DNA of 64,000 bases from a virus. The stretch is from IMG/VR virus record IMGVR_UViG_3300029760_000001; one strand, given 5' to 3'. Position 1 is the stretch's first letter; each line of letters begins with the position of its first letter. Of the stretch, positions 1 through 57,895 are shown one piece after another. The notes beneath the pieces were generated by a model, which had not been told where the DNA came from, made no database searches, and saw only the letters and a program-made list of their open reading frames with translations. Made by a program: the position numbers and the translations under genes.

Positions 1-434
1 GTATATATAAAGAAAATCAGAATCTTGAAGAGCTTATTAATCTGTTAAAGGAAAAGGCAGCATACTTATCTTATCCAATTGATGGGCTTGTTGCTGCATA
101 TAATGATATTGCTTATGGATTATCACTTGGAGTCACAGATAAGTATCCACGTCATTCTCTGGCATACAAGTTTTATAATGAAGAATATATTACGACACTT
201 ATTAATATTGAATGGCAAGTTGGTAAAACCGGAATTATTTCTCCGATAGCCGTATTTGAACCTATCGAAATAGAAGGAAGTATTATAACAAAAGCTAGTT
301 TATTTAATCTTTCTATATTAAAAGAAAAATTGGGGCATCCTTATGTTGGACAAAAATTATGGATAATTAAAGCAAACCAAGTAATTCCATATATTACAAA
401 AGCAGAAATGGTGGATGATAAATGGATAATATAA
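1..434 (+). CDS. ligA: NAD-dependent DNA ligase, N-terminal fragment (end of adenylation/OB-fold region), truncated by the window start; ends with its own stop at 432-434
   Basis: The frame from nt 3 translates to ...GLVAAYNDIAYGLSLGVTDKYPRHSLAYKF...EWQVGKTGIISPIAVFEPIEIEG...KLWIIKANQVIPYITKAEM. This is collinear with host LigA (55937-57895) residues ...DGLVALYDDIAYGDSLGRTAKFPRNAFAFKW...VYKANMIIPQIAENL. The stop TAA falls right after the OB domain. Confidence 0.75.
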   Translation, partial: IYKENQNLEELINLLKEKAAYLSYPIDGLVAAYNDIAYGLSLGVTDKYPRHSLAYKFYNEEYITTLINIEWQVGKTGIISPIAVFEPIEIEGSIITKASLFNLSILKEKLGHPYVGQKLWIIKANQVIPYITKAEMVDDKWII

Positions 435-982
435 AAATAGAAATATGGAAAGATATAATAGGATATGAGGGGTATTATCAAATAAGTAATTTAGGTAATG
501 TTAAAAGTTTGAATAGAATTGTAAAAAATAAAAATGGTTATAGAAATACTGGCGAAAGATTATTAAAAATTTATTTACCTAAAGATAGTCAGCATTATCC
601 ATTTGTTATTTTATGCAAGAATGGAAAAACTGAAAACAAATTAATACATCGTTTAGTAGCCACAGCATTTGTAACTAATGACGATCCTATACATAAAACA
701 CAGGTAAATCATATAGATGAAAATAAAATGAATAATAGTTCTGATAATTTAGAATGGTGTACTCCTAAATATAATGCAGAATATGGAACAAGAATAGAAC
801 GTACTAAAAAATCTACAACAAATAATCAATCGTGGAAGCGCGTTTTATGCGAAGAAACAGGTAAGACATACAGGTCTATTCGTTCAGCGTCTATGGATAC
901 AGGTGATTGCGAACACACCATTGCAAGAATGTGTAACGGATTAAAAACTAAAAATCTAAAATACCATTGGAGGTATGTATAA
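422..982 (+). CDS. Free-standing HNH homing endonuclease (NUMOD4 + HNH_3-like) inserted inside the phage ligase gene
   Basis: The N-terminus WKDIIGYEGYYQISNLGNVKSL is a NUMOD4-type motif and HIDENKMNNSSDNLEWCTPKYN is an HNH_3-like core. It has its own ATG and overlaps the ligase fragment stop by 13 nt. Confidence 0.7.
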   Translation: MDNIKIEIWKDIIGYEGYYQISNLGNVKSLNRIVKNKNGYRNTGERLLKIYLPKDSQHYPFVILCKNGKTENKLIHRLVATAFVTNDDPIHKTQVNHIDENKMNNSSDNLEWCTPKYNAEYGTRIERTKKSTTNNQSWKRVLCEETGKTYRSIRSASMDTGDCEHTIARMCNGLKTKNLKYHWRYV

Positions 983-1854
983 TGAACAATATAAAATTTA
1001 TTAAAATCCCTGAAGTATGCCCGATTTGTGGTAAGCCGGTGTCTGTCGTAAAAGAGAACGATTCTGAAGTATTGATGTGCATGAATGCTGGATGCAAAGG
1101 CAAGCTTCTGGGTGAATTAAATGCTTTTGTAGGGAAAAAGGCCCATGATATTAATGGATTATCTGAGGCCACATTGCAGCTATTGATTGATACTGGGCTT
1201 GTGACATCACCAATTTATCTGTATTATTTGAAGGATCATTCTACAGAATTGTCCAGATTACCTAGAATGGGAGCAAAGAAAATTGCGAATATTTTAGATT
1301 CTATTGAGTCTAGCAGGAATACTACCATAGAAAAATTTATTGTAGGATTAAATATTCCGTTAATTGGTGGTAGAGCTGCAAAGGATATTGCTAGATATGA
1401 AGAAATAAGAACCAGGGAATTAGGAATGCTCTATCCATTTGAAACATTTATTAAAGATGCTGCTTCTGATTTTAATTTTACCTGTATTGAAGGATTAGGG
1501 ACGGAGCGAAATATTTCTATCCATAGATATTTTAAGGAAAATTATGATTACGTTATTGCTTTGTCAGAACAGTTCATATTTTCGAAAATTAATAATGATA
1601 AAATATCTTCTGAAAGCGATTCATTGTCCGGAAAGAAATTCTGTATCACTGGGAAGTTACATATTTTTGCTAACCGGGATGAACTTGTGGCGGATATAGA
1701 ATCAAAAGGAGGGAAAGTTGTGTCCGGAGTTACAAAGGCAACTGATTATCTAATTACCAATGATAAAAACAGTGGATCTAGTAAAAATAAGAAAGCTTCT
1801 GAGTTGAATATTCCCATTATCAGTGAAGAAGAATACAAAAACAAATTAAATTAA
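967..1854 (+). CDS. ligA: NAD-dependent DNA ligase, C-terminal fragment (Zn-finger, HhH, BRCT)
   Basis: CPICGKPVSV...CMNAGC is a Cys4 zinc finger aligning to host CPACGHGTQ...CTNPDC. The C-terminal BRCT (GKKFCITGKL...ITNDKNSGSSKNKKASELNIPIISEEEY) matches host FVITGSVEHF...NSSKNKKAKELGIPILSEEDF. The true start may be ATG 982. Confidence 0.75.
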   Translation: MEVCIMNNIKFIKIPEVCPICGKPVSVVKENDSEVLMCMNAGCKGKLLGELNAFVGKKAHDINGLSEATLQLLIDTGLVTSPIYLYYLKDHSTELSRLPRMGAKKIANILDSIESSRNTTIEKFIVGLNIPLIGGRAAKDIARYEEIRTRELGMLYPFETFIKDAASDFNFTCIEGLGTERNISIHRYFKENYDYVIALSEQFIFSKINNDKISSESDSLSGKKFCITGKLHIFANRDELVADIESKGGKVVSGVTKATDYLITNDKNSGSSKNKKASELNIPIISEEEYKNKLN

Positions 1855-1863
1855 CTTTTGCTA

Positions 1864-1892
1864 TTGACAAATATGGTTATAAGTGATATAGT
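1864..1892 (+). promoter_or_regulatory. Sigma-A-type promoter (TTGACA, 17 nt spacer, TATAGT) preceded by conserved AAATTAAATTAACTTT box (1844-1859)
   Basis: Exact -35 hexamer, 17 nt spacer and a near-consensus -10. The same architecture recurs at 10555 and 28094. Confidence 0.5.
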
Positions 1893-1940
1893 TGACCTAT
1901 CAAAACGAATTAGATTAACTCAATCAGAAAGGCATGAACA

Positions 1941-2573
1941 ATGATATGTTACTATTTAAAAGGGAAAAATGGAGAGTACATCGCAAGAGATTCAACAGGA
2001 AGAATCAAATTAGTATCTGATCTTGCTGATGCACTCTTGGTTCCTGAAATTGAAAAGAAAAAGATTAAGGCAATTCAAGCAAATAATATTCCAGACGTAT
2101 TAAAAAAATTTGGACCATATGAAATTTGTGAAACCGATTATAATGGAGTTGAAGCAATTACAACAGATGATATAGTTGGTGAAATTATCGGTAGTATAAA
2201 TGAATTTTCAAGTAAGATGAATGAAATTACTGATTATTCAAAAGAACTTAATTCTATTATTTCATATACTGATTCACAAATTTCAGACATTTTGCATTAT
2301 ATTGAATTTCATAAGTTTTCTGCGGCAGAAGGATATAAATTATGCAAAAAGCTGCAAGAGATTTGTGATAGACGAAGAGAAGCTAAGAATAAGATGCAAA
2401 TTATAAATACAATGAAAATTCAATCATGTGCGAGCGTTTTATCTGGAAGTGCTACTAAAAGAATAGAAAAAATTGTGCCAGATAAAAAGTATACTCCAAG
2501 AGTATTTGATGAATTGTTCAAAAAGAATCAGTCTCGAATAAGAAAAGAAAAATCAGTGAAAATAAAAATTTAA
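1941..2573 (+). CDS. hypothetical protein
   Basis: 210 aa ORF with an RBS-like aaaggcatg context and no recognisable motif. Confidence 0.45.
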   Translation: MICYYLKGKNGEYIARDSTGRIKLVSDLADALLVPEIEKKKIKAIQANNIPDVLKKFGPYEICETDYNGVEAITTDDIVGEIIGSINEFSSKMNEITDYSKELNSIISYTDSQISDILHYIEFHKFSAAEGYKLCKKLQEICDRRREAKNKMQIINTMKIQSCASVLSGSATKRIEKIVPDKKYTPRVFDELFKKNQSRIRKEKSVKIKI

Positions 2574-2596
2574 TTAAACAATAAGGAGATAAAAAT

Positions 2597-4666
2597 ATGT
2601 TTAGAGATTTTGTAAAGGCAATCCAGAAAAATTTACAGCAGATGTCTAAAGATTCTTCAAGATTATTCACAGTAAATGTGGACACCGAGGAGCTTTATAA
2701 TTTATATCTGGATTCGTTTCCGGCAGGTACAAATGAAATTTACAGAGAAAGAAGAGAATATGACTGTAGTTGTTGTAGACATTTTATCAGAGACGTTGGT
2801 AACGTCGTATCTATTAAAAATGGTGAGTTACATACCATTTGGGGAATTAATCCAGTATCAGATGATAAATATAATGTAGTCGCAGCTGCGCTTGATGCCT
2901 ATGTAAAACAGAAAGCGGTATTAGGGGTATTCCTCAAAAAAGAGAAACGAATTGGTACTCCTGAAAATAGAGAAATGCTCCCGACAGGAAAAATTAATAA
3001 ATACGAGCATTTCTTCGTAGATCTGCCAGAAATTTGTATCTTTAAGGAATGTTATGGACATACACTTGAAGGTGATTTAAGTCAATTCAGAGATGTCCGT
3101 AATGTATTTAAACGTTCTCTTGATGAAATTAGTAAAGAAGCTGTAGATACTGTACTTGAACTGATTGCTCAAAATTCTTTATATAAAGGTGCCGAATGGA
3201 AAAAGCAACTTACTGAATTTAAGAATTATCAGAAAGAATATGGAAAGCTTACGGATGAACAGAAAGAACTTTGGATCTGGGAAAAGTCAATTGCTGCAGG
3301 TGCCGTTATTGGCAAGATTCGCAACCATAGCATAGGAACATTGCTGGTGAATATTTCCGAAGGAATGGATCTTGACCTTGCCGTTAGAAAGTATGAGCAG
3401 ATTGTAGCCCCTGTAAATTATAAACGTCCAAAGGCAATCTTTACAAAGAAGATGCTTGAAGATGCAAAGAAGACTATTACAGAACTTGGTTATATGGATT
3501 CATTACAGAGAAGATTTGCTACCTTGGATGATATCACAGTAAACAATATACTTTTCTCCAATAAAGACGCAGCAAAGAGAATTACCGGTGCTATGGATTT
3601 GTTTGATGAAATGGAACAGGATGTTGCAATTGATCCAAAACGATTCTCTAAGGTAGAGGAAATAAGTGCAGAAGATTTCATTAAGAATGTTCTGCCTGTA
3701 GCGAAAGAATTGGAAGTATATTTGGAGAATAAACATATTCAGAATATGGTATCTCTGATTGCTCCAGAAGTTGCTGCCGCGAAAACAATGTTCAAATGGA
3801 ACAATGGAATGTCTTGGGCATATACCGGTAATATTACAGATTCAGATATCAAAGAGAATGTAAAAGCTGCTGGTGGTTCAGTCACAGGTATTGTAAGATT
3901 CTCCATTCAATGGAATGACAAAGATGGAAAGGATAATTCTGACCTTGACGCACATTGTATTGAACCAAAAGGTGGAGATCATATTTATTTTGGTTGTGTA
4001 AAATCACGACGTACTAGAGGAGAATTGGATATAGACATTACTAATCCAATCGAACAGTGCAGAAATAGTAATGGAGTTGCTGTTGAAAATATTACATTTC
4101 CATCTAAAGAACACATGATTCCTGGTACATATAAGTTTTTTGTAAATCAGTTCGCATACAGAGGATCTCAGGGATTTAAAGCTGAAATTGAAGTAAATGG
4201 AGAAATTCATTCTTACGAATACAATACTCCAGTACGTGGAAATGTAGATGTTGCAGAAGTAATCCTTGATCAGTCAGGAAATTTCAAAGTAGTGGACAAA
4301 CTTCCAGGAAATTGTGCAACAATCAGTAAAGATGTCTGGGGAATTAAAACTTTGCAGTTTACACCGGTATCAGTTGTATGTTACTCACCAAATTACTGGG
4401 ACGAACAGAAGGGAATTGGTCATCAGCACTTATTCTTTATGCTGAAGGATTGCATCAATCCAGAAGAACCAAATGGATATTACAATGAATTTTTGAAACC
4501 GGAACTTGAGCAGCACCGAAGAGTATTTGAAGCGCTTGGAGCAAAAGCACATGTAAAAGATGTTGATGATCAGCTTTCAGGAGTAGGATTTTCACTTACA
4601 AAGAGAAATGATCTGATTATTAAAGTAAAAGGCGCTACAGAGCGAGTATTAAAAGTAAAATTTTAA
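2597..4666 (+). CDS. large hypothetical protein (689 aa), unknown function
   Basis: Good RBS (AAGGAGAT N6 ATG) and a long uninterrupted ORF. I recognise no motif. The C-terminal half contains FSIQWNDKDGKDNSDLDAHCIEP...GELDIDITNP. Confidence 0.55.
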   Translation: MFRDFVKAIQKNLQQMSKDSSRLFTVNVDTEELYNLYLDSFPAGTNEIYRERREYDCSCCRHFIRDVGNVVSIKNGELHTIWGINPVSDDKYNVVAAALDAYVKQKAVLGVFLKKEKRIGTPENREMLPTGKINKYEHFFVDLPEICIFKECYGHTLEGDLSQFRDVRNVFKRSLDEISKEAVDTVLELIAQNSLYKGAEWKKQLTEFKNYQKEYGKLTDEQKELWIWEKSIAAGAVIGKIRNHSIGTLLVNISEGMDLDLAVRKYEQIVAPVNYKRPKAIFTKKMLEDAKKTITELGYMDSLQRRFATLDDITVNNILFSNKDAAKRITGAMDLFDEMEQDVAIDPKRFSKVEEISAEDFIKNVLPVAKELEVYLENKHIQNMVSLIAPEVAAAKTMFKWNNGMSWAYTGNITDSDIKENVKAAGGSVTGIVRFSIQWNDKDGKDNSDLDAHCIEPKGGDHIYFGCVKSRRTRGELDIDITNPIEQCRNSNGVAVENITFPSKEHMIPGTYKFFVNQFAYRGSQGFKAEIEVNGEIHSYEYNTPVRGNVDVAEVILDQSGNFKVVDKLPGNCATISKDVWGIKTLQFTPVSVVCYSPNYWDEQKGIGHQHLFFMLKDCINPEEPNGYYNEFLKPELEQHRRVFEALGAKAHVKDVDDQLSGVGFSLTKRNDLIIKVKGATERVLKVKF

Positions 4667-4706
4667 TATAATTAAATTAAACAAATAGAAAGAGAGGAAT
4701 AAAAAC

Positions 4707-5274: not shown

Positions 5275-6021
5275 ATGAAAACATTTACAAAAAGAATTCT
5301 TTTACTTGCTTCGATACTCCTTATTTGGAGTATCGCTGCAAGACACGTAAATCCCTTGTTCGTTCCGGAACCAGTTACGGTATTTGATGATCTGATAGGC
5401 ATGATACGTACAGGACAGTTGATTAAGGCAATTGAATATTCGTTTCTAAGAATAACTGCTGCTACATTTATATCTGGAGCAATAGCATTTCCTATAGCGA
5501 TTCTGGTTTATAATTCCAGAATTGCTAAGGATATTCTTAATCCGATAATCAGTGTTATGCGATATATTCCGGTGACTGCATTTTATCCATTGCTTATTAT
5601 GTGGTTCGGGATAGATGAAATGATGAAAATTGTATTTTTGTTTATCGCAACATTCGTATATATGATGCCGTCAGTTGTATTATGCCTGGAGGAAGTAAAC
5701 AACGATCTAATAGATACCGGACTTACAATTGGAATGAGCAAATTACAAACGATATGGAGAATTCAGATTCCGGCATCATTGCCAGGAGTATTAAATAGCT
5801 ACATTATGATGTATGGAATTGGATTTACATATATTGCAGTAGCTGAAACAATAAATGCTCAATATGGACTTGGATATATAATCCAGCAATCATCTTCCAG
5901 AGGAAGAACAGATTTAGTATTTATGGCAATCATTGTGATTATGATCATCAGTGTTATATTTGATTATGTATCTAAATGGTTAGTAAGGAAAATTTTTAAG
6001 TGGAGGTATATAAATGATTGA
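5275..6021 (+). CDS. ABC transporter permease, SsuC/TauC/NrtB family (BPD_transp_1)
   Basis: Six hydrophobic segments with an EAA-like loop region ([22 protein letters not shown]). The overall pattern is typical of sulfonate/nitrate/taurine-type permeases. Confidence 0.7.
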
Positions 6022-6625
6022 AATTCATAATTTATACACAGGATACAGTAGAGATAAACCACTTTTATCTGGGTTTAATTATAATTTTGATAATAAGATC
6101 TACGGGATCCTTGGAGAATCTGGATGCGGCAAGACAACTTTGTTAAGGACGGTTGCAGGATTAATCAAACCGTTATCTGGAGAAATTATCATAGATAATA
6201 ATCCGGTTACAAAAGCAAGTAAAAATGAAGTATATATGATGCATCAGAACTATACTTCTTTTGATTGGTTAAATTGTCTTGACAATATACTAATTGCTAA
6301 AAAAGTTAAAGGCCATGTAGAACCAGAAGATATAGAAGCAGCTAAGAAGATGCTTTATTTAGTTGGTCTGAATGGAAACGAAAATAAATATCCTAAGCAG
6401 CTATCTGGAGGTATGAAACAACGGCTTGCGTTAGCCAGGACGTTATTTGCAAAACCAAAGATTCTTTTAATGGATGAACCATTGTCAGCACTGGATGCTG
6501 AGACACGAAGTAATATGCAATTGTTAATTATGGATTTGCATAGGTTACTTGATAATACTGTAATCATGGTCACACACAGTGAATCAGAAGCAAAGATAAT
6601 GTGTGATGAAATATTGAAATTTTAG
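6014..6625 (+). CDS. ABC transporter ATP-binding protein (short, SsuB/TauB-like)
   Basis: Walker [10 protein letters not shown], signature [13 protein letters not shown], Walker [13 protein letters not shown] and H-loop VTHS are all present. The start overlaps the permease stop. Confidence 0.75.
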
Positions 6626-6637
6626 GAAGGACATACA

Positions 6638-7171
6638 ATGGGAATTTTAAAAAACTTATTTGTGGAAGAAGTACCGGATGAGACACCTGATATTCCAGAT
6701 ATAGATACTGATTTTGATACAACCGAGACTAACGCAGAGCTTGATTCAGTCAATACTGACACTTTGATTGATGATATTTACAGCCAGAATAATCTGGCAG
6801 ATAAAACACAGTCAATTTTTAAAGTGGAAGAGTTAATAAAATCATTTCCAAAGGAAATGACGACAGAAACAAAAAGAAATTCAGTATTGGCAACACTTGG
6901 TGTATTTGGCTTGACAGTGACTGATGTTGAGGCAGACGGAGAAAAAAGAGTTGATGTTTTAAGCGACATTCTCTCAAAGATTATTTGTGATTCTGAAACT
7001 GTTGTTACTGAAAAAGAAAATGCCATTGAAGAACACAAAATGGAAATCGAGCGCCTGGAAAAGGAAATTGCTGATCAGAGGGCTGAAACAAAAACATCTG
7101 ATGAAACTATTACTACTGAAATTGATAGAATCAAAAATTTAATTAACTTTACTATTGGAGGAAATGCATAA
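6638..7171 (+). CDS. hypothetical acidic protein
   Basis: 177 aa, D/E-rich N-terminus and coiled-coil C-terminus. It sits inside the ABC cassette. Confidence 0.4.
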   Translation: MGILKNLFVEEVPDETPDIPDIDTDFDTTETNAELDSVNTDTLIDDIYSQNNLADKTQSIFKVEELIKSFPKEMTTETKRNSVLATLGVFGLTVTDVEADGEKRVDVLSDILSKIICDSETVVTEKENAIEEHKMEIERLEKEIADQRAETKTSDETITTEIDRIKNLINFTIGGNA

Positions 7172-7908
7172 TGGAACTTGGTAAACTAATTTTTATTGTT
7201 GCAGTGGTTGTTATTGTATTGATACTGATCCTGTTTCCGGAAGCAAGAAAATTACTGTCTGGATTTACTAGATTATTTATCAAAGATATGGCAACCACAC
7301 CAGAAGGAGCAGAGGCTATCTACGAAGAAAAAATTGACCAGGCTCAGGAATCTTATAATAAAGCGGATAATGCATATAAGATTGCTGCTGGAAAATTAAG
7401 CAATGCACAGAAAGATCTCGATAGGAAAAGAAAAAGACTTATTAATGTTGAAGCAGAGTGTGAATCTCTGGTTAAAACTAATCAGATCGAGCTTGCACAG
7501 TTAAAGGCAGAGGAAAGAGAAGAGATTCTTTCAGATATTCGCAGAGTTACTGGATTGGTAAATGCTTATAAAGAAGCTACAGACGCAGCAAAAGAGACGC
7601 AGGAAAGATGTGAAAAGAATCTGAGAAGTCTGAAGCGTGAGAGCAAAGAAGTTGTGGAGAATATGAAAGTAAAGAAGCAGCTTCAGGAAGTCTATGATGA
7701 TATGGATGAATTGAAAAATGTCACGGCAACAGATAAATTGCTTGATTCTGTTCGAGATAAAAACAGAGATCTGGATGCTATTGTGGAAGGATCTAAAGTA
7801 GTACACAATAATAAGATGTCTACCAAACTTGAAAAGGCTGAAGCGGAAGCAAAAAAGAATAACAGCAATGATTATCTGAACAGCTTGAAAAAGAAATATA
7901 ATAAATAA
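7171..7908 (+). CDS. hypothetical membrane-anchored coiled-coil protein
   Basis: N-terminal TM helix (LIFIVAVVVIVLILILF) followed by a long charged helical region. Confidence 0.4.
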   Translation: MELGKLIFIVAVVVIVLILILFPEARKLLSGFTRLFIKDMATTPEGAEAIYEEKIDQAQESYNKADNAYKIAAGKLSNAQKDLDRKRKRLINVEAECESLVKTNQIELAQLKAEEREEILSDIRRVTGLVNAYKEATDAAKETQERCEKNLRSLKRESKEVVENMKVKKQLQEVYDDMDELKNVTATDKLLDSVRDKNRDLDAIVEGSKVVHNNKMSTKLEKAEAEAKKNNSNDYLNSLKKKYNK

Positions 7909-7919
7909 GGAGTAGTAAA

Positions 7920-9518
7920 ATGAAGAAAGCAAAAAGATTTAGATTAACTAAAGCAGCAAAAATTCTGATTATGGTTCTGATTGTAGCTTTAATTGGTGGA
8001 GGTATTTTTGCAGGAGTACAAACCGGAGTAATTCAGACGAAGAAAGATAAAAAGGAATCAATCGTAGCAAAGACAGATGATACCGATACAAATAAAGAAA
8101 ACAGTGCGAACAAAGATAATAAAACTGCAGATGATGATACAACCATCAATTTATCATTAGATGAATGGATCGGTTGGAAATCCATTATTGACGCTAATGG
8201 CGGCTTAACAACTCAGTCAGGTTCCATCTATGATAAACTTGGCGTAAAAGTAAATATTAATGTTATTAACGACGCAACACAATCAAGTAATGCTCTGATT
8301 AAAGGAGATCTGAACGCTGCAGGTTATACAATCAACAGAACTGCATTCTTATCTAAGAAATTCACTGATGCCGGAAAAGAAGTGGTGATGCCGTATATTA
8401 CAAATTACTCAAATGGTGGTGACGGTATTATTGCGAAGTCTTCTATTCAGAATGTAAATGATCTTGTAAATGCTAAAATTGGTGTACCAGAATTCTCTGA
8501 AGCTCAAACACTTGTAGTATGGTTTGTAAATAATTCTGATCTTTCTAATAAAGCCAAAGCAAAGATTATTGATAATCTTGTATTGTTCTCAACACCAGAT
8601 GATGCAGCAAAAGCATTTTTTGCCGGTCAGATTGATGTTGCAGCAACCTGGGAACCATACCTGACTCAGGCAAAGAATATGACAGACGCACATGTATTAT
8701 TTAGCACTGCAAGTTCTTCAAATCTTGTTATGGATGGAATTCTGTTTGATAAGAAATTTGCAGAAGCACATGCAGATGTAGTAGAGAAATTTATCCAGGG
8801 ATCTCTGGAAGCTGCAGATATGTATAATACAGAATTTAATGCAATCCGTGAAGTAATGCCTATGTTTAACACTGCATCAGATGAAGATATTGTAGCAAAT
8901 ACGGAGTCTGCAAAACTGACAACATGGAAAGATAATTTAGATCTATTAAATGGAACTGCAAAGACAATTTATTCAGATATGTGTAACGTATGGACATCAA
9001 TTGGTGAGTCTGTAAATGCTGATCTTGTTAATAGTATTTTTGATGATACATATATTAATGCTATTTCAGATAAATTTAGTGCAACGGAAGTGTCTAATAC
9101 AAATACTGTAAAGGTTACAGAGGATAATAAAAAGGAAATTCAGGATACTGAAGCTTTATTACAGGGTAAAGCATCTGTTACATTTATTCAGAATACGGCA
9201 AAATTCTCTGATTCTGCTGCAGCATCTAAAGAACTTAATAAGTTTATTGACATTGCAAAGGTGCTTGACGGTGCAATCATTGAAATTGCAGGAAATACAG
9301 ACCCTAATCCGGAATCAGATCCTGAAGACGAGTATAATCAGAAGTTGTCCTTACAAAGAGCAGAAGCTGTTAAAAACTATTTTGTTATGAATGGAATTTC
9401 TAACGGACGTATTGTAGTAGTTGGAAATGGATCCAGCAATCCTGTTGTTGATAATGATACTGATGAACATCGCGCAATGAATAGACGTACTGATGTATCA
9501 TTTAAGATCATTGAGTAA
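7920..9518 (+). CDS. Membrane-anchored NMT1/SsuA-like substrate-binding domain fused to a C-terminal OmpA-like peptidoglycan-binding domain
   Basis: N-terminal TM helix. The middle region (KVNINVINDATQSS...GYTINRTAF...KIGVPEFSEAQTLVVW...IDVAATWEPYLTQA) resembles SsuA/NMT1-type SBPs. The C-terminus (LSLQRAEAVKNYF...NRRTDVSF) matches the OmpA_C motif. Confidence 0.55.
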   Translation: MKKAKRFRLTKAAKILIMVLIVALIGGGIFAGVQTGVIQTKKDKKESIVAKTDDTDTNKENSANKDNKTADDDTTINLSLDEWIGWKSIIDANGGLTTQSGSIYDKLGVKVNINVINDATQSSNALIKGDLNAAGYTINRTAFLSKKFTDAGKEVVMPYITNYSNGGDGIIAKSSIQNVNDLVNAKIGVPEFSEAQTLVVWFVNNSDLSNKAKAKIIDNLVLFSTPDDAAKAFFAGQIDVAATWEPYLTQAKNMTDAHVLFSTASSSNLVMDGILFDKKFAEAHADVVEKFIQGSLEAADMYNTEFNAIREVMPMFNTASDEDIVANTESAKLTTWKDNLDLLNGTAKTIYSDMCNVWTSIGESVNADLVNSIFDDTYINAISDKFSATEVSNTNTVKVTEDNKKEIQDTEALLQGKASVTFIQNTAKFSDSAAASKELNKFIDIAKVLDGAIIEIAGNTDPNPESDPEDEYNQKLSLQRAEAVKNYFVMNGISNGRIVVVGNGSSNPVVDNDTDEHRAMNRRTDVSFKIIE

Positions 9519-10583: not shown

Positions 10584-10680
10584 AAATACATAGTCAAGGA
10601 TGACAACAGCACAGTGGAGTGAAAGCTCCCTGTGCTAAATAAAAAGAAGAAAGAAATTTAATTATACAAACAATGAATGT

Positions 10681-10765
10681 AGCGGTATGATGAAATTGGC
10701 TAGACATAATAGACTTTGACTCTATTGAGCAGTAGCTCGTGTGGGTTCGAATCCCACTACCGCCG
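10681..10765 (+). tRNA. Type II (long variable arm) tRNA with anticodon UUG. The body is Leu/Ser-like, discriminator G, and pair 1:72 is an A:C mismatch
   Basis: Hand-folded. Acceptor AGCGGTA/TACCGCC; 3-bp D-stem ATG/CAT; anticodon stem ATAGA/TCTAT with loop CTTTGAC; 15-nt variable arm with GAGC/GCTC hairpin; T-arm GTGGG-TTCGAAT-CCCAC. Confidence 0.55.
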
Positions 10766-10844
10766 TTTGGCAAGTATTTTATAAAAATATACTCCAGCCG
10801 AATTGCAGAGAAATATAATTTAATTATACAAAAAGGAGATAAAA

Positions 10845-11963
10845 ATGAGTAAAATTATTAGTACAGGTTCCACTTTTAGAATCTACGGAGATGATCTTGT
10901 AACACATAATCAACTTCCGGCACAAATTTATTCTATCAGATGTTCAAAGATGACAGGATTTTATTTAGAGAAACATGCTGATATTGAGATCAATGAAGAT
11001 AAAATATACGGTGTGCACATGGAAAAAGTAAATAAAGTATTAAATGCTTTTCCAAATTTCAATAAAAATCTTGGCGTGATCTTATCTGGAGCCAAAGGAA
11101 TTGGCAAATCTTTATTTTCTAAGATTCTTGCTGTAGAAGCTGTAAAAAAAGGATTGCCAGTAATTATTGTTGATACATATATCCCTGGAATTGCTAATTT
11201 TATTGAAGAAATTGAACAGGAAGTATTAGTAATGTTTGATGAGTTTGATAAAACATTTGGTAATATTAAAGCTGCTGATGGTATGGCTAATCCGCAAACA
11301 GAGTTGCTTACATTATTTGATGGATTAGCTCAAGGGAAAAAGTTATATGTTATTACTTGTAATAATCTTAATACTCTGAGTGATTATTTGGTAAATAGAC
11401 CTGGAAGATTTCATTATCATTTTAGATTTGATTATCCGACAGATTCTGAAATCACAGAATATATGAGAGACAAGTTACATAAAGAGTATTATGGAGAAAT
11501 TAGTAAGGTAATTGCATTTTCTAAAAGAGTCAGCTTGAATTATGATTGTTTAAGAGCTATCGCATTTGAGCTTAATACAGGATTACAATTTCAAGAGGCA
11601 ATTAAAGATATGAATATCCTTCATATAAATAATACCGTTTATATAGCTACTTTGTATACTAAAGATGGGAAAAAAGATACAGAAGAAAAAACTCTTGACT
11701 TGTTTGATAAGACTTCTAATCATAGTTTATATTTTACAATAGATGGAAAATGGTTCTATACAAAATTTTCTGGTGTTGATGTAAGATATGATTTTGACAG
11801 ACACATTGATTTTGTTGATGGAAAAGATGTTGAAATTATTCCGGATGAAGACTATGCGGATCTTACAAAAGAAGAAAAGAAAAAATACGAAAATATTAAA
11901 ATTGATCGTATCGTTTTTGCAAGAAAAGAAGAAAAGGGACTTCATTATAATCTTGCTGCATAA
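10845..11963 (+). CDS. AAA-family ATPase
   Basis: Walker A GVILSGAKGIGKS and Walker B VLVMFDEFDK are present. The gene lies inside the tRNA cluster. Confidence 0.6.
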   Translation: MSKIISTGSTFRIYGDDLVTHNQLPAQIYSIRCSKMTGFYLEKHADIEINEDKIYGVHMEKVNKVLNAFPNFNKNLGVILSGAKGIGKSLFSKILAVEAVKKGLPVIIVDTYIPGIANFIEEIEQEVLVMFDEFDKTFGNIKAADGMANPQTELLTLFDGLAQGKKLYVITCNNLNTLSDYLVNRPGRFHYHFRFDYPTDSEITEYMRDKLHKEYYGEISKVIAFSKRVSLNYDCLRAIAFELNTGLQFQEAIKDMNILHINNTVYIATLYTKDGKKDTEEKTLDLFDKTSNHSLYFTIDGKWFYTKFSGVDVRYDFDRHIDFVDGKDVEIIPDEDYADLTKEEKKKYENIKIDRIVFARKEEKGLHYNLAA

Positions 11964-12130
11964 AAATTAAATTAAACATTCCGATAAATAAAAACTTTAA
12001 ATATGCAGAAGTTCGGTTATAAGCATATGTCTTTCATTTTACTTTTTACCTCTTATAACTCGTTTGAAGCAGGTCTTACGAGTATAAATAAACTGTATAA
12101 GGGTAAGCCGGTAGTAACCTTATACAACAA

Positions 12131-12210
12131 GCGGATATGGCGGAATTGGCAGACGTAGAAGGCTCAAACCCTTCGGAGAAATCGTGTGGGTTCGAATCCC
12201 ACTATCCGTA
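12131..12210 (+). tRNA. tRNA-Leu (anticodon CAA)
   Basis: Acceptor GCGGATA/TATCCGT (G1:U72 wobble); anticodon stem GAAGG/CCTTC with loop CTCAAAC; T-arm identical to the 10681 tRNA; 11-nt variable region; discriminator A. Confidence 0.6.
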
Positions 12211-12646
12211 TTCGGACTATTCTTACGGATTTACTTGATGGCCTAAATAGTAATGAGGAGAAATAAGTCCGAGAGGTTAACCTTTATATTATATAGCGTC
12301 TATAGGACATTAAAGAAGATTGAAAAGTTGGTGGAATACTGGAACCCAGTGATGAGGAAGCTGCGAATGTGTTGGTTGTATGGTTTGGACGCATTGAAAG
12401 GAAACATTTATATAGATGTGCTTTGTGCTAATGAGGTTGTGAGTGGGCGTTGGAGGAGGATCTGGTAGCAGATGTGTAATTAGTTACGAAGCGAAAAGTA
12501 ATTGAGTCAGTGAGGTAGAAATAATGTGGGAGGGCTTTTGAGAGTGATGACGATCGTTCGTGTAACTGACACGATTGCATAAGCAAGTTTTTTACAGATA
12601 TTGTTACATTTCTATATTGTGGGTGTAATTATAACGCCCACTACAT

Positions 12647-12720
12647 GGAAACTTAGCTCAGTTGGTTAGAGCAACCGGCTCATAACCGGTCGGTCCTGGG
12701 TTCGAGTCCCAGAGTTTCCA
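12647..12720 (+). tRNA. tRNA-Met (or Ile2-lysidine) anticodon CAT, elongator type
   Basis: Perfect cloverleaf: acceptor GGAAACT/AGTTTCC; D-arm GCTC-AGTTGGTTA-GAGC; anticodon stem ACCGG/CCGGT with loop CTCATAA; T-arm CTGGG-TTCGAGT-CCCAG. Confidence 0.8.
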
Positions 12721-12925
12721 TTTCTCCTGACGAAGGAGTGACTTTTATAGGCTGTAGAGTTCCAATAAGAAACAAGCCGTTTCTAGTTAGGGCGTGAAAC
12801 TGGTGTTTTTTTGAGATGTTTTATAAGTAAAAATATCCAGCTTTAGAGAAAATGTAGTGAATTGAGCTGATCAAAGAACACATAATCCTGTTAGGACTGC
12901 AGCACGACAGGTCATGCATGAAAAG

Positions 12926-12998
12926 TGATAAGTAGCTCAGTTGGGAGAAAGAGCGCACTACAAAAGTGAGGTCGGTGGTTCGAGTCCACTCTTATCAC
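12926..12998 (+). tRNA. tRNA-like gene with aberrant anticodon arm (possibly degenerate or non-canonical)
   Basis: Good acceptor (TGATAAG/CTTATCA) and T-arm (GGTGG-TTCGAGT-CCACT). The D-loop is 12 nt, and the anticodon region CACT-ACAAA-AGTG forms only a 4-bp stem with a 5-nt loop. Confidence 0.35.
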
Positions 12999-13075
12999 AT
13001 TTGTAATGATGACGCGCGGATCGTTACAAAAGAAAATAGTAACTACTGAAATGTATATTTAAGGAGGCAGTAAAC

Positions 13076-15974: not shown

Positions 15975-16020
15975 CTATAAATAATTAAATTATACAAAGT
16001 ACAGAAAGGAAACAAATACT

Positions 16021-17169: not shown

Positions 17170-17196
17170 ATAAATATTGATCCCAGGGCTTTTGCC

Positions 17197-19215: not shown

Positions 19216-19228
19216 TCGGAGAATAATT

Positions 19229-40674: not shown

Positions 40675-40683
40675 GGAGGCATT

Positions 40684-42990: not shown

Positions 42991-43005
42991 AGAGGAGTAA
43001 AGAGA

Positions 43006-43545: not shown

Positions 43546-43547
43546 AA

Positions 43548-43955: not shown

Positions 43956-43965
43956 GAAAAGATTT

Positions 43966-55167: not shown

Positions 55168-56139
55168 ATGTACAAAAAATTATATAATAGAACAATGGAC
55201 GAAAAAATCAGAATAAACAAATATTTAAGCGAGGCAGGCATATGCTCCAGACGGGAAGCCGACCGGATGATCGAAGAGGGAAGGATTACGGTAAACGGAA
55301 AAAAAGCAGAAAGCGGTCAGAAAGTCAGCCTGGAAGATGAGGTCTGTGCAGACAATATACCTGTCCATAAAAATGAAAAAAAAGTACTGCTTCTTTTTAA
55401 CAAACCCAGAGGGATCGTGTGCAGTACAAAGCAGCAGTTTGATGAGACAACGGTAACAGATTATCTGGATTATCCTCTGCGTGTTTATCCTGTGGGCAGA
55501 CTGGATAAAGAATCACAGGGCCTTCTCCTTCTGACAAATGAAGGAGATCTGGTCAATAAGATCATGCGCGCCGGAAACTATCATGAGAAAGAATATTTTG
55601 TGACAGTGAATAAGCCGGTGGACAGGGAATTTGTCCGAAGGATGAGCAAGGGAGTCCCTGTTCTTGATACAGTGACCAGACCATGCAGAGTGGTGCAGAC
55701 AGGAGAATGCAGCTTTCGGATCATTCTGACACAGGGACTGAACCGGCAGATCCGCAGAATGTGCCGGTATCTGGGATATGAGGTACAGAAGCTGAAAAGG
55801 ATCAGGATCATGAATCTGACTCTGGACGGGATCAGAGAAGGCGAATACAGAGAGATCACAGCACAGGAATGGGAAGAACTGAACCATTTACTGGAATCTT
55901 CCACAAGTGAAACAGTGATCAGAACAGGAGAACAGAATGGAAACAGCAGCGATCATGCGAATGAAAGAGCTGGTGCAAAAGCTGGACAGGGCAGCAAAGG
56001 CGTATTACCAGCAGGATACAGAGATCATAAGCAACAGAGAGTACGATCAGATGTACGACGAGCTTCAGGCTCTGGAGAAAGAGACAGGCACTGTTCTGGC
56101 AAACAGCCCAACCATAAGCGTAGGGTACGAGGCAGTTGA
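55168..56139 (+). CDS. rluF: Pseudouridine synthase RluF/RsuA family (S4 domain + catalytic domain). The ORF as read runs ~200 nt into ligA in another frame
   Basis: S4 motif INKYLSEAGICSRREADRMIEEGRITVNG and catalytic VGRLDKESQGLLLLTNEGDL. The recognisable domain ends near 55920; the low-complexity R/G-rich tail beyond that is probably a read-through artefact. Confidence 0.6.
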   Translation: MYKKLYNRTMDEKIRINKYLSEAGICSRREADRMIEEGRITVNGKKAESGQKVSLEDEVCADNIPVHKNEKKVLLLFNKPRGIVCSTKQQFDETTVTDYLDYPLRVYPVGRLDKESQGLLLLTNEGDLVNKIMRAGNYHEKEYFVTVNKPVDREFVRRMSKGVPVLDTVTRPCRVVQTGECSFRIILTQGLNRQIRRMCRYLGYEVQKLKRIRIMNLTLDGIREGEYREITAQEWEELNHLLESSTSETVIRTGEQNGNSSDHANERAGAKAGQGSKGVLPAGYRDHKQQRVRSDVRRASGSGERDRHCSGKQPNHKRRVRGS

Positions 56140-57895
56140 CCAGCTTCCAAAAGAAGAACACGAATCCCCCATGCTGTCTCTGGACAAGACTAAGGACAGA
56201 GAAGTTCTGAGGGAATTTATCGGGGAACACAAAACGCTTCTGTCATGGAAGCTGGACGGACTGACGATCGTTCTTACCTACGAGAATGGAGGACTTGCCA
56301 AAGCAGTTACACGTGGAAACGGTGTGACAGGAGAGGTTGTCACCAATAATGCCAGAGTATTTAAGAACGTTCCTCTTAAAATCCCGTATCAGGGAAGACT
56401 GGTGTTACGCGGGGAAGCGATCATTACCTATTCAGACTTTGAACGGATCAATGAATCCATAGAAGACGTTGATGCGAAATACAAGAATCCGAGAAACTTA
56501 TGCAGCGGTTCTGTCCGCCAGTTAAACAATGAGATCACAGCCCGCAGGAATGTGCGTTTCTACGCATTTACGCTGGTAAGCGCCGACGGGGTTGATTTCC
56601 ATAATTCAAGAGCCCGGCAGTTTGAATGGCTGAAAGAACAGGGATTTGATGTAGTGGAATACAGGACAGTCACAGCTTCAACGCTGGATGAAGCCATGGA
56701 ATATTTTTCAACTGCGATCACTGAGAATGATTTTCCGTCGGACGGACTGGTTGCTCTTTATGATGATATTGCATACGGAGATTCCCTTGGAAGAACGGCG
56801 AAATTTCCCAGAAATGCTTTTGCATTCAAATGGGCAGATGAGATCAGAGAAACCCATCTTCTGGAGATCGAATGGAGCCCGTCAAGAACAGGGCTGATCA
56901 ATCCGGTGGCTGTTTTTGAACCGGTTGAGCTGGAGGGAACCACTGTGAGCCGCGCCAGCGTACACAATGTGAGCATTCTAAAAGAATTGCAGCTTGGTAT
57001 CGGGGATACGATCACTGTATATAAAGCAAATATGATCATTCCGCAGATTGCAGAAAACCTCACACGCAGCAGTAAACTGGAAATTCCGGATACCTGCCCT
57101 GCATGTGGCCATGGAACACAGATACAGAAGGTAAATGATGTGGAGGCACTTTACTGTACAAATCCTGACTGTGCCGCAAAGAAGATCAAATCCTTTGCAC
57201 TTTTTGCAAGCAGGGATGCCATGAACATTGACGGACTGTCAGAAGCAACACTGGAGAAATTCATTGCAAGAGGCTTTATTCATGATTTCGGAGATATTTT
57301 TGAGATTGGAAAGCATCGTGATGAGATTGTGGAGATGGACGGATTCGGGGAGAAATCCTTTGAGAACCTGATGACCAGCCTTGATAAAGCTAAGGAGACT
57401 ACTCTTGCGAAGGTGATCTACAGCCTTGGAATCGCCAATATCGGTCTTGCCAATGCAAAAGTGATCTGCAGGCATTTTGATGATGATCTGGAGAAGATCC
57501 GTCATGCAGATAAAGAGGAAATCAGCTCTATTGATACCATCGGACCGGTAATTGCCGGAAGTCTGACTGATTATTTTTCAAACGAGGATAATAACAGAAA
57601 ACTGGATCATCTGATGAGCCATCTGACTGTTAAGAAAGAAGAAAAGACAGGTGAGCAGATTTTCCGGAACATGAATTTCGTTATCACAGGAAGTGTGGAG
57701 CACTTTGCAAACAGAGCACAGGCAAAGGAATTTATTGAGTCTCTGGGAGGCAAGGTGACCGGATCAGTAACATCGAAGACGAACTACCTGATCAATAATG
57801 ACACAACTTCCAATTCTTCAAAGAATAAAAAAGCCAAAGAACTGGGAATTCCGATCCTTTCTGAAGAAGATTTCCTGAAGATGGCACAACAATAA
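55937..57895 (+). CDS. ligA: NAD-dependent DNA ligase LigA (host, intact)
   Basis: 652 aa: Ia domain, adenylation domain, OB fold, CPACGHG...CTNPDC zinc finger, HhH and C-terminal BRCT. AGGAGA RBS. Confidence 0.9.
   Translation: METAAIMRMKELVQKLDRAAKAYYQQDTEIISNREYDQMYDELQALEKETGTVLANSPTISVGYEAVDQLPKEEHESPMLSLDKTKDREVLREFIGEHKTLLSWKLDGLTIVLTYENGGLAKAVTRGNGVTGEVVTNNARVFKNVPLKIPYQGRLVLRGEAIITYSDFERINESIEDVDAKYKNPRNLCSGSVRQLNNEITARRNVRFYAFTLVSADGVDFHNSRARQFEWLKEQGFDVVEYRTVTASTLDEAMEYFSTAITENDFPSDGLVALYDDIAYGDSLGRTAKFPRNAFAFKWADEIRETHLLEIEWSPSRTGLINPVAVFEPVELEGTTVSRASVHNVSILKELQLGIGDTITVYKANMIIPQIAENLTRSSKLEIPDTCPACGHGTQIQKVNDVEALYCTNPDCAAKKIKSFALFASRDAMNIDGLSEATLEKFIARGFIHDFGDIFEIGKHRDEIVEMDGFGEKSFENLMTSLDKAKETTLAKVIYSLGIANIGLANAKVICRHFDDDLEKIRHADKEEISSIDTIGPVIAGSLTDYFSNEDNNRKLDHLMSHLTVKKEEKTGEQIFRNMNFVITGSVEHFANRAQAKEFIESLGGKVTGSVTSKTNYLINNDTTSNSSKNKKAKELGIPILSEEDFLKMAQQ

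What the first reader, a model, noticed from the sequence alone, without database searches (positions are those of the whole stretch)
1..1854. Phage NAD-dependent DNA ligase split into two ORFs by an inserted free-standing HNH homing endonuclease
The ligase N-fragment ends with a stop immediately after the OB-fold. An HNH (NUMOD4+HNH_3) gene with its own start follows, and the ligase resumes exactly at the zinc-finger/HhH/BRCT portion. The arrangement is collinear with the intact host LigA (55937-57895). This is not an intein: there are stop codons and no in-frame fusion. It is a T4-like split gene. Either the two fragments reassemble into a working ligase or the phage ligase is inactive. The window start truncates the N-terminal part.
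Basis: seen in the sequence. Interest (0 to 1): 0.6.

Follow-up and report, generated by a model that had tools for sequence, protein, structure and literature searches.

The report
Prophage DNA ligase split by mobile endonuclease
A gut-bacterium prophage carries an NAD-dependent DNA ligase gene cut into two genes by a mobile HNH endonuclease gene that is still spreading between related phages, at the same domain boundary where phage T5's ligase is permanently two-piece. This is a clean natural example of a known phenomenon, not a new kind of system.

Summary
Window 3-434 encodes the end of the adenylation domain plus the OB fold of a LigA-type ligase. Window 422-982 is a NUMOD4+HNH endonuclease gene, and 982-1854 encodes the zinc finger, HhH and BRCT domains. 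The full 383-aa N-fragment was recovered from an identical metagenome contig. Close relatives settle the history. Phages whose ligase backbone is 97-99% identical carry an uninterrupted 665-aa ligase. A roughly 880-bp cassette (window ~165-1043) is 97-100% identical in at least three ligase backbones that differ by up to 33%. The cassette holds a foreign OB-fold segment, the HNH gene, and the ribosome-binding site and start codon of the C-fragment. This is the gene-conversion signature of "intronless homing". There is no intron, no intein and no sequencing error. Both ligase halves are intact in 25 of 25 loci, and they keep 139 of 143 residues that are invariant in uninterrupted relatives. Other mobile elements occupy the same linker elsewhere. 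T5-family phages keep a ligA/ligB split at the same position under strong purifying selection. Whether the two halves reassemble is inferred, not shown, and reliance on the host LigA remains a live alternative. I rate it a new member of a known kind, of moderate interest.

The parts
1..434 (+). 3' part of the ligase N-fragment gene, in frame 3 with its stop codon at 432-434. The complete gene is 1152 nt (383 aa: Ia, adenylation and OB domains) and starts 718 nt upstream of the window.
   Evidence: Pfam DNA_ligase_aden and DNA_ligase_OB hits. 50% identity to host LigA residues 266-373. The full gene is L003:8862-10013, and that locus is 100% identical to window 1-4700. The KMDG adenylation motif is present.
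165..1043 (+). Mobile cassette (gene-conversion tract). It contains a foreign OB-fold coding segment, the N-fragment tail and stop, the HNH gene, and the ribosome-binding site, ATG and first ~20 codons of the C-fragment.
   Evidence: This stretch is 97-100% identical between ligase lineages whose backbones are only 60-77% identical. It is 54-76% identical, or absent, in uninterrupted alleles whose backbones are 97-99% identical. The crossover points map to window 161-173 and 1039-1047 in two lineages.
422..982 (+). Free-standing NUMOD4-HNH homing endonuclease gene (186 aa).
   Evidence: Pfam NUMOD4 and HNH_3 hits. Match to I-HmuI (1U3E), E=7e-14, with the VNH..N..N motif conserved. Full length in 25 loci. 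The closest relatives, at 65% and 44% identity, also sit between ligase halves.
969..973 (+). GGAGG ribosome-binding site for the C-fragment. It lies inside the last codons of the HNH gene (H-W-R-Y-V), 8 nt before ATG 982.
   Evidence: Read directly from the sequence. The same YHWRY end is conserved in the diverged HNH of L062 and in the decayed copy in L061.
982..1854 (+). Ligase C-fragment gene (290 aa: Cys4 zinc finger, HhH, BRCT).
   Evidence: Aligns to host LigA residues 381-646. Pfam BRCT hit. No terminator lies upstream, and the next promoter-like site is at 1864-1892.
55937..57895 (+). Host chromosomal LigA (652 aa, uninterrupted). It serves as the comparison sequence and is a possible functional backup for the phage ligase.
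   Evidence: Pfam domains from Ia to BRCT. It lies in the 41-45% GC host region beyond the integrase and tRNA-Arg.

Best explanation
A free-standing NUMOD4-HNH homing endonuclease gene of the I-HmuI type has converted this prophage's NAD+-dependent ligase gene by intronless homing.

The proposed steps are as follows.

1. The endonuclease presumably cuts or nicks uninterrupted ligase alleles when two related phages meet in one cell.
2. The break is repaired from the endonuclease-carrying allele.
3. Repair copies in an ~880-bp cassette. The cassette replaces the OB-fold coding segment and the OB-Zn linker with a diverged OB segment, a new stop codon, the HNH gene, and a ribosome-binding site plus ATG for the remainder of the ligase.

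The result is a three-gene operon: N-fragment (Ia, adenylation, OB; 383 aa), HNH (186 aa) and C-fragment (Zn, HhH, BRCT; 290 aa).

I consider it most likely that the two ligase polypeptides assemble non-covalently around nicked DNA into a working two-subunit ligase, as is assumed for T5 LigA/LigB.

What is shown: the anatomy, the presence/absence polymorphism, the cassette boundaries and the horizontal spread into at least three backbones. What is inferred: the endonuclease activity and its target, expression of both halves, and their reassembly.

My confidence in the structural and evolutionary part is about 0.9. My confidence in functional reassembly is about 0.55.
For: **Presence/absence polymorphism**
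- Uninterrupted 665-aa ligases have 99% (lineage A) or 97% (lineage B) nucleotide identity to the split alleles over ligase nt 1-840.

**Cassette**
- Sliding identity between the window type and the lineage-B split allele (L011/L052) is 60-77% in the backbone. It is 92-100% from ligase nt ~850 to ~1705.
- The crossover points coincide in both lineages.
- A third backbone (P0004, whose closest uninterrupted partner is P0060 at 95%) carries the same OB segment with a longer upstream tract.
- The cassette OB is only about 53% identical at the protein level to any uninterrupted OB.
- In IMG/VR the cassette OB occurs only on HNH-carrying contigs, 16 of 16.

**Frequency**
- Among the IMG/VR relatives there are about 19 uninterrupted loci, 2 damaged loci and 16-17 HNH-bearing loci.

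**Endonuclease**
- The catalytic motif is intact and the gene is full length in 25 loci.

**Support for a working split ligase**
- The N and C ORFs are intact in 25 of 25 loci.
- 139 of 143 residues invariant in 33 uninterrupted LigAs are kept.
- dN/dS is 0.11 for the N backbone, 0.14-0.21 for the cassette OB and 0.13-0.19 for the C-fragment.
- The cassette supplies GGAGG plus ATG for the C-fragment, and no terminator lies inside the operon.
- In L061 the HNH gene has decayed but both ligase ORFs are kept.
- The T5 family is split at the same residue position, with dN/dS of 0.05-0.08 for both halves.
- The break lies in a coil between the last OB strand and the zinc finger in the AlphaFold model of an uninterrupted relative.

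**Literature**
- Free-standing endonucleases cut hundreds of bp from their insertion site, and split genes can stay functional (PMC2988022).
Against: - No biochemical evidence exists for cleavage, for the target site or for reassembly of the two halves.
- A fragment of another NAD+ ligase equivalent to the N-fragment (LigN residues 1-417) adenylates itself but cannot ligate (PMC1684257). The split enzyme is therefore dead unless the halves associate.
- The cassette is young (dS about 0.01-0.04). The absence of decay in the ligase halves could reflect too little time. Low dN/dS in the backbones could be imported by recombination with uninterrupted alleles.
- The population contains apparently null ligase alleles: an IS66 insertion, a 1-nt indel and a 46-nt deletion. 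A host LigA is available. Together these suggest the phage ligase may be dispensable.
- Four of the 143 otherwise invariant residues are changed, all in the cassette OB, including H341F in the conserved LHN motif.
- The identical cassette ends in two lineages could reflect ordinary homologous recombination at conserved patches and need not mark endonuclease-defined ends.
Confidence: 0.7

Rival explanations
1. The insertion simply killed the phage ligase. The two ORFs are a young pseudogene pair, and the prophage relies on the host LigA (55937-57895) for nick sealing. The endonuclease persists as a purely selfish element.
For: - An N-fragment-equivalent truncation of another NAD+ ligase cannot ligate.
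- The host LigA is intact in the same window.
- Null-looking alleles circulate: an IS66 insertion in L012/L013 and an indel and a deletion in L033/L034.
- The cassette is recent (dS 0.01-0.04), so a lack of decay is weak evidence.
- The cassette OB changes 4 otherwise invariant residues.
Against: - 25 of 25 loci keep both ORFs, and 139 of 143 invariant residues are retained.
- Polymorphism that arose within the cassette OB has dN/dS of 0.14-0.21.
- A ribosome-binding site and start codon for the C-fragment are built into the cassette and conserved in diverged relatives.
- L061 lost the endonuclease but kept both halves.
- T5-family phages maintain the same split under strong purifying selection.
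- The phage also carries NAD+ synthesis genes.
Confidence: 0.27
2. A single full-length ligase is restored after transcription or translation, by group I/II intron splicing, protein splicing (intein or split intein) or programmed recoding.
For: HNH genes of the I-HmuI type are often intron-encoded (established knowledge; 1U3E match).
Against: - No Rfam family, including intron models, matches at E<=1 in window 1-2600.
- The HNH ORF fills essentially the whole insert (561 of ~570 extra nt), leaving no room for an intron core.
- The HNH gene is in a different frame and is flanked by stop codons.
- The fragment-specific ends are only 10 aa (AEMVDDKWII) and 6 aa (MNNIKF), too short for intein halves.
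Confidence: 0.02
3. The ligase was already an ancient two-gene enzyme in this phage lineage, as in T5, and the HNH gene later settled in the pre-existing intergenic gap.
For: Two-gene ligases without an endonuclease exist in T5-like phages. L061 has no functional HNH gene.
Against: - In this lineage, alleles with 97-99% identical backbones are uninterrupted single ORFs.
- No relative within it shows a gap without HNH sequence.
- The L061 gap still contains a recognisable HNH pseudogene.
Confidence: 0.01

Closest known systems
Phage T5 / Demerecviridae two-gene NAD+-dependent ligase (ligA T5.116, ligB T5.117)
   Same: - Same enzyme family and the same break point. T5-type LigA ends right after the OB fold (...GGVIPCIVERVYD*) and LigB starts at the zinc finger (MKIEIPTQCPSCG).
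- Both halves are conserved, with dN/dS of 0.05-0.08.
- The literature describes it as a split NAD+-dependent ligase (PMC1684257; PMC4319617).
   Different: - T5 has about 200 nt of spacer containing promoters and no endonuclease gene.
- The split is fixed in the whole family and no uninterrupted relatives are known.
- No HNH remnant is detectable in the Vibrio T5-like spacer ORFs.
- T5 LigA lacks a recognisable Ia domain hit.
- Sequence identity to the window ligase is only about 28-31%.
Aeromonas phage Aeh1 nrdA split by the free-standing HNH endonuclease mobE ('genes in pieces'). Also T4 gene 39/60 with mobA.
   Same: A free-standing HNH homing endonuclease gene lies inside a conserved DNA-metabolism gene and yields two polypeptides. 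The Aeh1 case was shown to give an active enzyme (PMC2988022; PMC7344957).
   Different: - The target gene differs (ribonucleotide reductase or topoisomerase), and so does the endonuclease subfamily.
- Here the insertion is polymorphic in natural populations and has a mapped conversion tract that swaps a whole domain-coding segment.
- Activity of the split ligase has not been tested.
Intronless homing by T4 seg/mob endonucleases (SegF, SegG, MobE)
   Same: A free-standing endonuclease gene is transmitted together with flanking markers by gene conversion. Cleavage sites lie at a distance from the insertion point (PMC2988022). The ~290-nt upstream co-converted segment seen here fits that pattern.
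   Different: The T4 cases were shown by genetic crosses and in vitro cleavage. Here only the population-genetic footprint is available.
I-HmuI (SPO1 DNA polymerase intron HNH nicking endonuclease, PDB 1U3E)
   Same: It is the best solved relative of the endonuclease, E=7e-14 over the NUMOD4-like N-terminus and the HNH motif.
   Different: I-HmuI is encoded in a group I intron. The window gene is free-standing, and its C-terminal DNA-binding part does not align.

Membership tests
NAD+-dependent DNA ligase (LigA) | Adenylation domain with the KxDG lysine, preceded by the Ia NMN-binding domain | tested here: met
   The full N-fragment (L003:8862-10013) contains CKMDGL. The precomputed Pfam hits are Nlig-Ia and DNA_ligase_aden. 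The window portion hits DNA_ligase_aden.
NAD+-dependent DNA ligase (LigA) | OB fold, Cys4 zinc finger, HhH and BRCT domains in that order | tested here: met
   DNA_ligase_OB has E=1e-17 and BRCT has E=3e-12. CPICG...C...C and the HhH region align to host LigA residues 381-646. 139 of 143 invariant residues are kept.
NAD+-dependent DNA ligase (LigA) | All domains on one polypeptide | tested here: not met
   There is a stop codon at 432-434 and a new start at 982. The arrangement is the same in 25 loci.
NAD+-dependent DNA ligase (LigA) | NAD+-dependent nick sealing | not testable with these tools
   This needs biochemistry or complementation.
Free-standing HNH homing endonuclease | HNH catalytic motif with a DNA-binding module (NUMOD) | tested here: met
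   NUMOD4 and HNH_3 hits. The VNHxDxNKxNNxxxNLEW...N motif is conserved with I-HmuI and with diverged relatives.
Free-standing HNH homing endonuclease | Own ORF, not inside an intron or intein | tested here: met
   It has its own ATG and stop in a different frame from the ligase. There is no Rfam match.
Free-standing HNH homing endonuclease | Presence/absence polymorphism among near-identical host alleles, with co-conversion of flanking sequence | tested here: met
   Backbones are 97-99% identical with and without the cassette. The cassette is 97-100% identical across backbones that are 67% identical.
Free-standing HNH homing endonuclease | Site-specific cleavage of the endonuclease-less allele and super-Mendelian inheritance | not testable with these tools
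   This needs a cleavage assay and phage crosses.
Genes-in-pieces (Aeh1 NrdA type) | A conserved gene split into two ORFs by an endonuclease gene, with both ORFs retained | tested here: met
Genes-in-pieces (Aeh1 NrdA type) | The two polypeptides assemble into an active enzyme | not testable with these tools
   Only indirect support is available.
T5-type two-subunit NAD+ ligase | Break between the OB fold and the zinc finger | tested here: met
   Alignment of the window fragments and the T5-type LigA/LigB to uninterrupted ligases.
T5-type two-subunit NAD+ ligase | Short non-coding or promoter spacer with no endonuclease gene between the halves | tested here: not met
   T5 has a ~200-nt spacer with promoters. 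The window has a 186-aa HNH gene.
Group I/II intron-encoded endonuclease | Structured intron RNA core around the ORF | tested here: not met
   No Rfam match at E<=1. The insert is almost entirely ORF.
Intein / split intein | In-frame intein blocks at the fragment ends | tested here: not met
   The fragment-specific ends are 10 and 6 residues. The HNH gene is in another frame and is flanked by stops.

The most novel reading that the evidence does not exclude
The OB-to-zinc-finger linker of phage NAD+ ligases is a recurrent landing site for mobile elements. Occupants seen here are at least three diverged NUMOD4-HNH genes of one lineage, a GIY-YIG-like gene and an IS66 element. Endonuclease-driven splitting followed by decay of the endonuclease, with L061 as an intermediate, would then be the route by which permanently two-subunit NAD+ ligases such as T5 LigA/LigB arose. 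On this reading the split enzyme works as a heterodimer, and homing here also swaps a whole OB domain (53% identical) between ligases.
Probability: 0.45. Interest if true: 0.6.

Novelty: new member of a known kind. Interest (0 to 1): 0.45.

Why it matters
It links two things that were known separately: homing endonucleases that break genes into pieces, and the unexplained two-gene NAD+ ligase of phage T5. The material has four useful properties:

- Split and uninterrupted alleles with 97-99% identical backbones coexist at roughly equal frequency in human-gut phage populations.
- The gene-conversion tract is mapped to within a few bases.
- Several stages of the endonuclease life cycle are represented: active, interrupted by an insertion sequence, and decayed.
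- There is a directly testable prediction that a LigA cut between the OB fold and the zinc finger still works.

If the halves do reassemble, this defines a natural split site for engineering two-part NAD+ ligases. It would also show that homing can exchange an entire protein domain between diverged enzymes. If they do not reassemble, it shows that a selfish element can reach about 45% frequency while inactivating a phage replication gene that the host can replace.

Tried and rejected
- **Megablast of window 1-4700 against GenBank phages:** no match. No isolate phage of this group is in that collection.
- **First tblastn with a wrong frame** was repeated with correct coordinates.
- **Search for an uninterrupted ligase carrying the cassette-type OB (the donor lineage).**
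  - Among the 120 best homologues, none exceeds 60% OB identity unless it is split.
  - A word-indexed search with the 78-aa OB segment returned only two short fragments and was uninformative.
  - An exact-pattern scan of IMG/VR found the cassette OB only on HNH-bearing contigs.
  - The donor lineage remains unknown.
- **HNH remnants in the spacer ORFs of Vibrio T5-like phages:** no Pfam hit at E<=1. An endonuclease origin of the T5 split is therefore conjecture.
- **CRISPRi-ART T5 paper, checked for ligA/ligB fitness data:** no mention in the main text.
- **Literature searches for an HNH-interrupted NAD+ ligase:** nothing relevant found.
- **Long-term dN/dS between diverged split alleles (L061, L062, L063):** low, at 0.1-0.29. 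I do not count it as proof of selection in the split state. The endonuclease region of L061 and L062 is more similar than their ligase backbones, so the splits may be younger than the backbones.
- **Prediction of the target site:** windows conserved among uninterrupted alleles but different in the cassette gave several candidates and no unique one.
- **Modelling the N+C complex:** not possible, because concatenated or paired inputs are not accepted.
Full report
**1. What is in the window**

Window 3-434 (+ strand) translates without a stop to 143 residues. These match the end of the Pfam NAD-ligase adenylation domain and the OB-fold domain (E=1e-17). They align to residues 266-373 of the uninterrupted LigA at 55937-57895 with 50% identity.

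An ATG at 422 opens a 186-codon gene with NUMOD4 and HNH_3 domains. It overlaps the N-fragment stop codon (432-434) by 13 nt.

Its stop codon (980-982) overlaps the ATG at 982-984 as TAATG. This opens a 290-codon ORF that aligns to residues 381-646 of the same LigA (34% identity). That ORF contains the CPICG...C...C zinc finger and a BRCT domain.

A GGAGG at 969-973 lies inside the last HNH codons, 8 nt before that ATG. No terminator-like site lies within the three genes. The best promoter-like site (11 of 12 matches) is at 1864-1892, after the C-fragment.

**2. Context**

- The window up to about 52 kb is phage DNA. It encodes a DnaB-like helicase, a primase, a 1169-aa DNA polymerase, an exonuclease, ribonucleotide reductase and NAMPT, at 31-36% GC.
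- An integrase (50995-52257, minus strand) abuts tRNA-Arg (52531-52603). Beyond it the GC content is 41-45%.
- The second LigA is therefore a genuine host gene.
- A related HNH-split copy lies in the genome of Ruminococcus sp. AM36-2AA.
- No isolate phage in GenBank matches at the DNA level.

**3. Completing the gene**

The exact HNH protein is indexed in 1837 blocks of the public assembly collection. All eight long contigs shown (200-280 kb, human gut metagenomes) have the same three genes.

L003 is 100% identical to window 1-4700. It supplies the missing 718 nt. The N-fragment is 383 aa and has the Ia, adenylation (CKMDGL) and OB domains.

**4. Relatives without the insertion**

A homology search with the N-fragment found dozens of 664-668-aa single-chain ligases at 85-89% overall identity. 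Their genomic context is the same as in the window: integrase, DndB-like, MrpR-like, a small ORF, then the ligase.

Among IMG/VR relatives I counted:

| State of the ligase locus | Loci |
|---|---|
| Uninterrupted | about 19 |
| Recent indel or deletion | 2 |
| HNH-bearing | 16-17 |

**5. The insertion is a cassette, not a bare gene**

Sliding-window identity gave the following:

| Comparison | Ligase nt 1-850 | Ligase nt ~856-1140 (OB fold) | HNH region |
|---|---|---|---|
| Window allele vs uninterrupted L009 | 99-100% | 54-76% | absent in L009 |
| Window allele vs HNH-bearing L011/L052 (second lineage) | 60-77% | 92-100% | 92-100%, up to nt ~1705 |

- That second backbone has its own uninterrupted counterpart, L036. 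It is 97% identical over nt 1-840 but only 69% identical in the OB segment.
- Base-level alignment puts the upstream crossover at ligase nt 879-891 (window 161-173). This lies in the conserved ...PRHSLAYKF... coding patch.
- The downstream crossover is at nt 1757-1765 (window 1039-1047), just after the CPICG codons. The crossover points coincide in both lineages.
- A third backbone (P0004, whose closest uninterrupted partner is P0060 at 95%) has the same OB segment. It is identical to the window allele from residue 252 onward, so its upstream tract is longer.
- The cassette OB is about 53% identical at the protein level to every uninterrupted OB among the 120 best homologues.
- In IMG/VR the cassette OB occurs only on HNH-bearing contigs, 16 of 16.

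The mobile unit is about 880 bp. It consists of a foreign OB segment, a 10-residue tail and stop codon, the HNH gene, and the ribosome-binding site, ATG and first codons of the C-fragment.

In uninterrupted alleles the linker reads ...IPQISRNMTRGYNTGEKFIIPKICPICG. In the split allele it reads ...IPYITKAEMVDDKWII* followed by MNNIKFIKIPEVCPICG.

One nearly identical cassette in at least three diverged backbones, each with an empty counterpart, is the footprint expected of intronless homing. In that process a free-standing endonuclease cuts at a distance from its own gene, and the interval is co-converted during repair (PMC2988022).

**6. The endonuclease**

- Its best solved relative is I-HmuI (1U3E, E=7e-14). 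The VNHxDxNK...NLEW...N motif is intact.
- Polymorphism is low: 6 synonymous-only and 10 amino-acid-changing codons of 186. dN/dS is 0.31-0.43.
- Its closest relatives outside the 99% cluster also sit between the two halves of an NAD+ ligase, in other phage types. These are P0128 (65% identity, locus L082) and the L062 gene (44% identity).
- A 48%-identical relative (P0140) does not sit in a ligase.
- This looks like a lineage of endonucleases that tracks this ligase site.

**7. Rivals that restore one polypeptide**

- No Rfam family matches at E<=1.
- The ORF fills the insert.
- The reading frames differ.
- The fragment-specific ends are too short for intein halves.

These rivals are rejected.

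**8. Is the split ligase functional?**

This step is inference.

*Evidence for function:*

- Both halves are full length in 25 of 25 loci.
- They keep 139 of 143 residues that are invariant in 33 uninterrupted LigAs, including the host enzyme.
- dN/dS is 0.11 for the N backbone, 0.14-0.21 for the cassette OB (whose polymorphism arose in the split state, though it rests on only 13 variable codons) and 0.13-0.19 for the C-fragment.
- The cassette provides the translation signals for the C-fragment. The same YHWRY end, which encodes GGAGG, is kept in the 44%-identical relative.
- L061 has a decayed HNH gene, with a 98-nt deletion and a stop after 40 codons. It still retains both ligase ORFs and the GGAGG before the C-fragment.
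- The break lies in a coil (residues 373-394) between the last OB strand and the first zinc-finger strand in an AlphaFold model of uninterrupted P0008 (mean pLDDT 80).
- T5-family phages are split at the same alignment position. This holds across the T5-like phages examined, from Escherichia, Salmonella, Klebsiella and Vibrio hosts. dN/dS is 0.05 for ligA and 0.08 for ligB between T5 and IrmaTschudi. A two-piece enzyme with this break point is therefore evolutionarily maintained.

*Evidence against function:*

- A fragment of Haloferax LigN equivalent to the N-fragment adenylates itself but cannot ligate (PMC1684257). The halves must associate for any activity.
- The cassette is young (dS 0.01-0.04). 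Backbone variation may be imported from uninterrupted alleles by recombination.
- Null-looking alleles exist (see section 9).
- The host LigA could substitute.
- The four lost invariant residues are all in the cassette OB, including H341F in the LHN motif.

I put functional reassembly at about 0.55 and a dead gene at about 0.27. The remainder is uncertainty.

**9. Other occupants of the same linker**

- L063 has a GIY-YIG-like gene with an I-HmuI-type NUMOD domain between a 385-aa half and a 279-aa half.
- L012 and L013 have an IS66 element with a 9-bp target duplication (GATTTCTCG) inside the linker of an otherwise uninterrupted-type allele. It lies two codons before a native Met.
- L033 and L034 differ from L019 only by a 1-nt indel and a 46-nt deletion, respectively.

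Recurrent occupation of one 15-residue linker suggests either a tolerated break point or a preferred target. The IS66 case has no obvious ribosome-binding site and may simply be a knockout.

**10. Comparison with what is known**

- The arrangement works like the Aeh1 nrdA/mobE and T4 39/60-mobA "genes in pieces".
- It spreads like T4 seg/mob intronless homing.
- It produces the gene structure that has been annotated in T5 since 2005 as ligA/ligB ("split NAD+-dependent DNA ligase").

I found no paper in the held library describing an endonuclease-split NAD+ ligase. That library is incomplete. I found no trace of an endonuclease in the T5-like spacers, so a common origin is a hypothesis only.

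**11. Verdict**

I rate it a new member of a known kind. It is well documented by natural polymorphism, of moderate interest, and comes with a clear experimental test.

Noticed in passing
L012:6177-9044 and L013 (relatives of window 1-1854): An IS66-family element on the opposite strand, with a 9-bp target duplication (GATTTCTCG). It is inserted in the same OB-Zn linker of an otherwise uninterrupted-type ligase, two codons before a native Met. It leaves a 373-aa ORF and a 294-aa ORF.
   Followed up: partly
L061:5143-5427: A decayed copy of a related NUMOD4-HNH gene between ligase halves. It has a 98-nt deletion and a stop after 40 codons. Both ligase ORFs and the GGAGG before the C-fragment are retained. 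This is a possible intermediate towards a T5-like two-gene ligase.
   Followed up: partly
L063:1441-2028, L062:3838-4347 and L082:4001-4564: Other endonuclease genes sit at the same ligase junction in different phage types. One is GIY-YIG-like with an I-HmuI-type NUMOD domain. Two are NUMOD4-HNH genes, 44% and 65% identical to the window gene.
   Followed up: partly
L042:4346-5600 (same sample as L054): An IS3-type element (two-ORF transposase, opposite strand) interrupts the HNH gene itself at about codon 67, while the ligase N-fragment stays intact.
   Followed up: no
L033 (ligase nt 1282) and L034 (ligase nt 1286-1331): Uninterrupted-type ligase alleles identical to L019 except for a 1-nt indel and a 46-nt deletion, respectively, in the same short stretch. 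They are either recent knockouts or assembly errors.
   Followed up: no
window 39877-46881: A cluster of NAD+-related genes: a PRPP-synthetase-like gene (39877-40674), NAMPT (41052-42524), a NADAR domain protein (45334-45762) and NAD synthase (46069-46881). Tpt1/KptA RNA 2'-phosphotransferase (43006-43545) lies among them. This could feed the NAD+ ligase or counter NAD+-depleting host defences.
   Followed up: no
window 38770-39876: A short (368-aa) adenylosuccinate-synthetase-like protein. It matches phrog_1211, the PurZ-type family annotated as '2-aminooxy adenylosuccinate synthetase', at E=2.6e-91. This raises the possibility of a modified-adenine genome. No DatZ or MazZ partners were looked for.
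   Followed up: no
window 50995-52603: The prophage end: a tyrosine integrase (50995-52257, minus strand) next to tRNA-Arg(CCG) at 52531-52603. GC content steps from about 33% to about 43%.
   Followed up: partly
window 5275-9518 versus L001, L004, L006 and L007 at 15200-20000: The cargo a few kb downstream of the ligase differs between near-identical phages. The window, L003, L005 and L008 have an ABC-transporter-like pair plus an OmpA-domain protein. The others have a P-type ATPase, vWA/TerF-like, TerD and PspA-like genes. L002 and L004 also carry a Tad2-like gene.
   Followed up: no
window 1040-1854 and the equivalent region in L009-L036: The C-terminal half of the ligase is itself mosaic. 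At least two allele types, about 55-80% identical in the HhH region, recombine among backbones independently of the HNH cassette.
   Followed up: partly
window 10680-12999: Four phage-encoded tRNA genes: Gln, Leu, Met and Cys.
   Followed up: no
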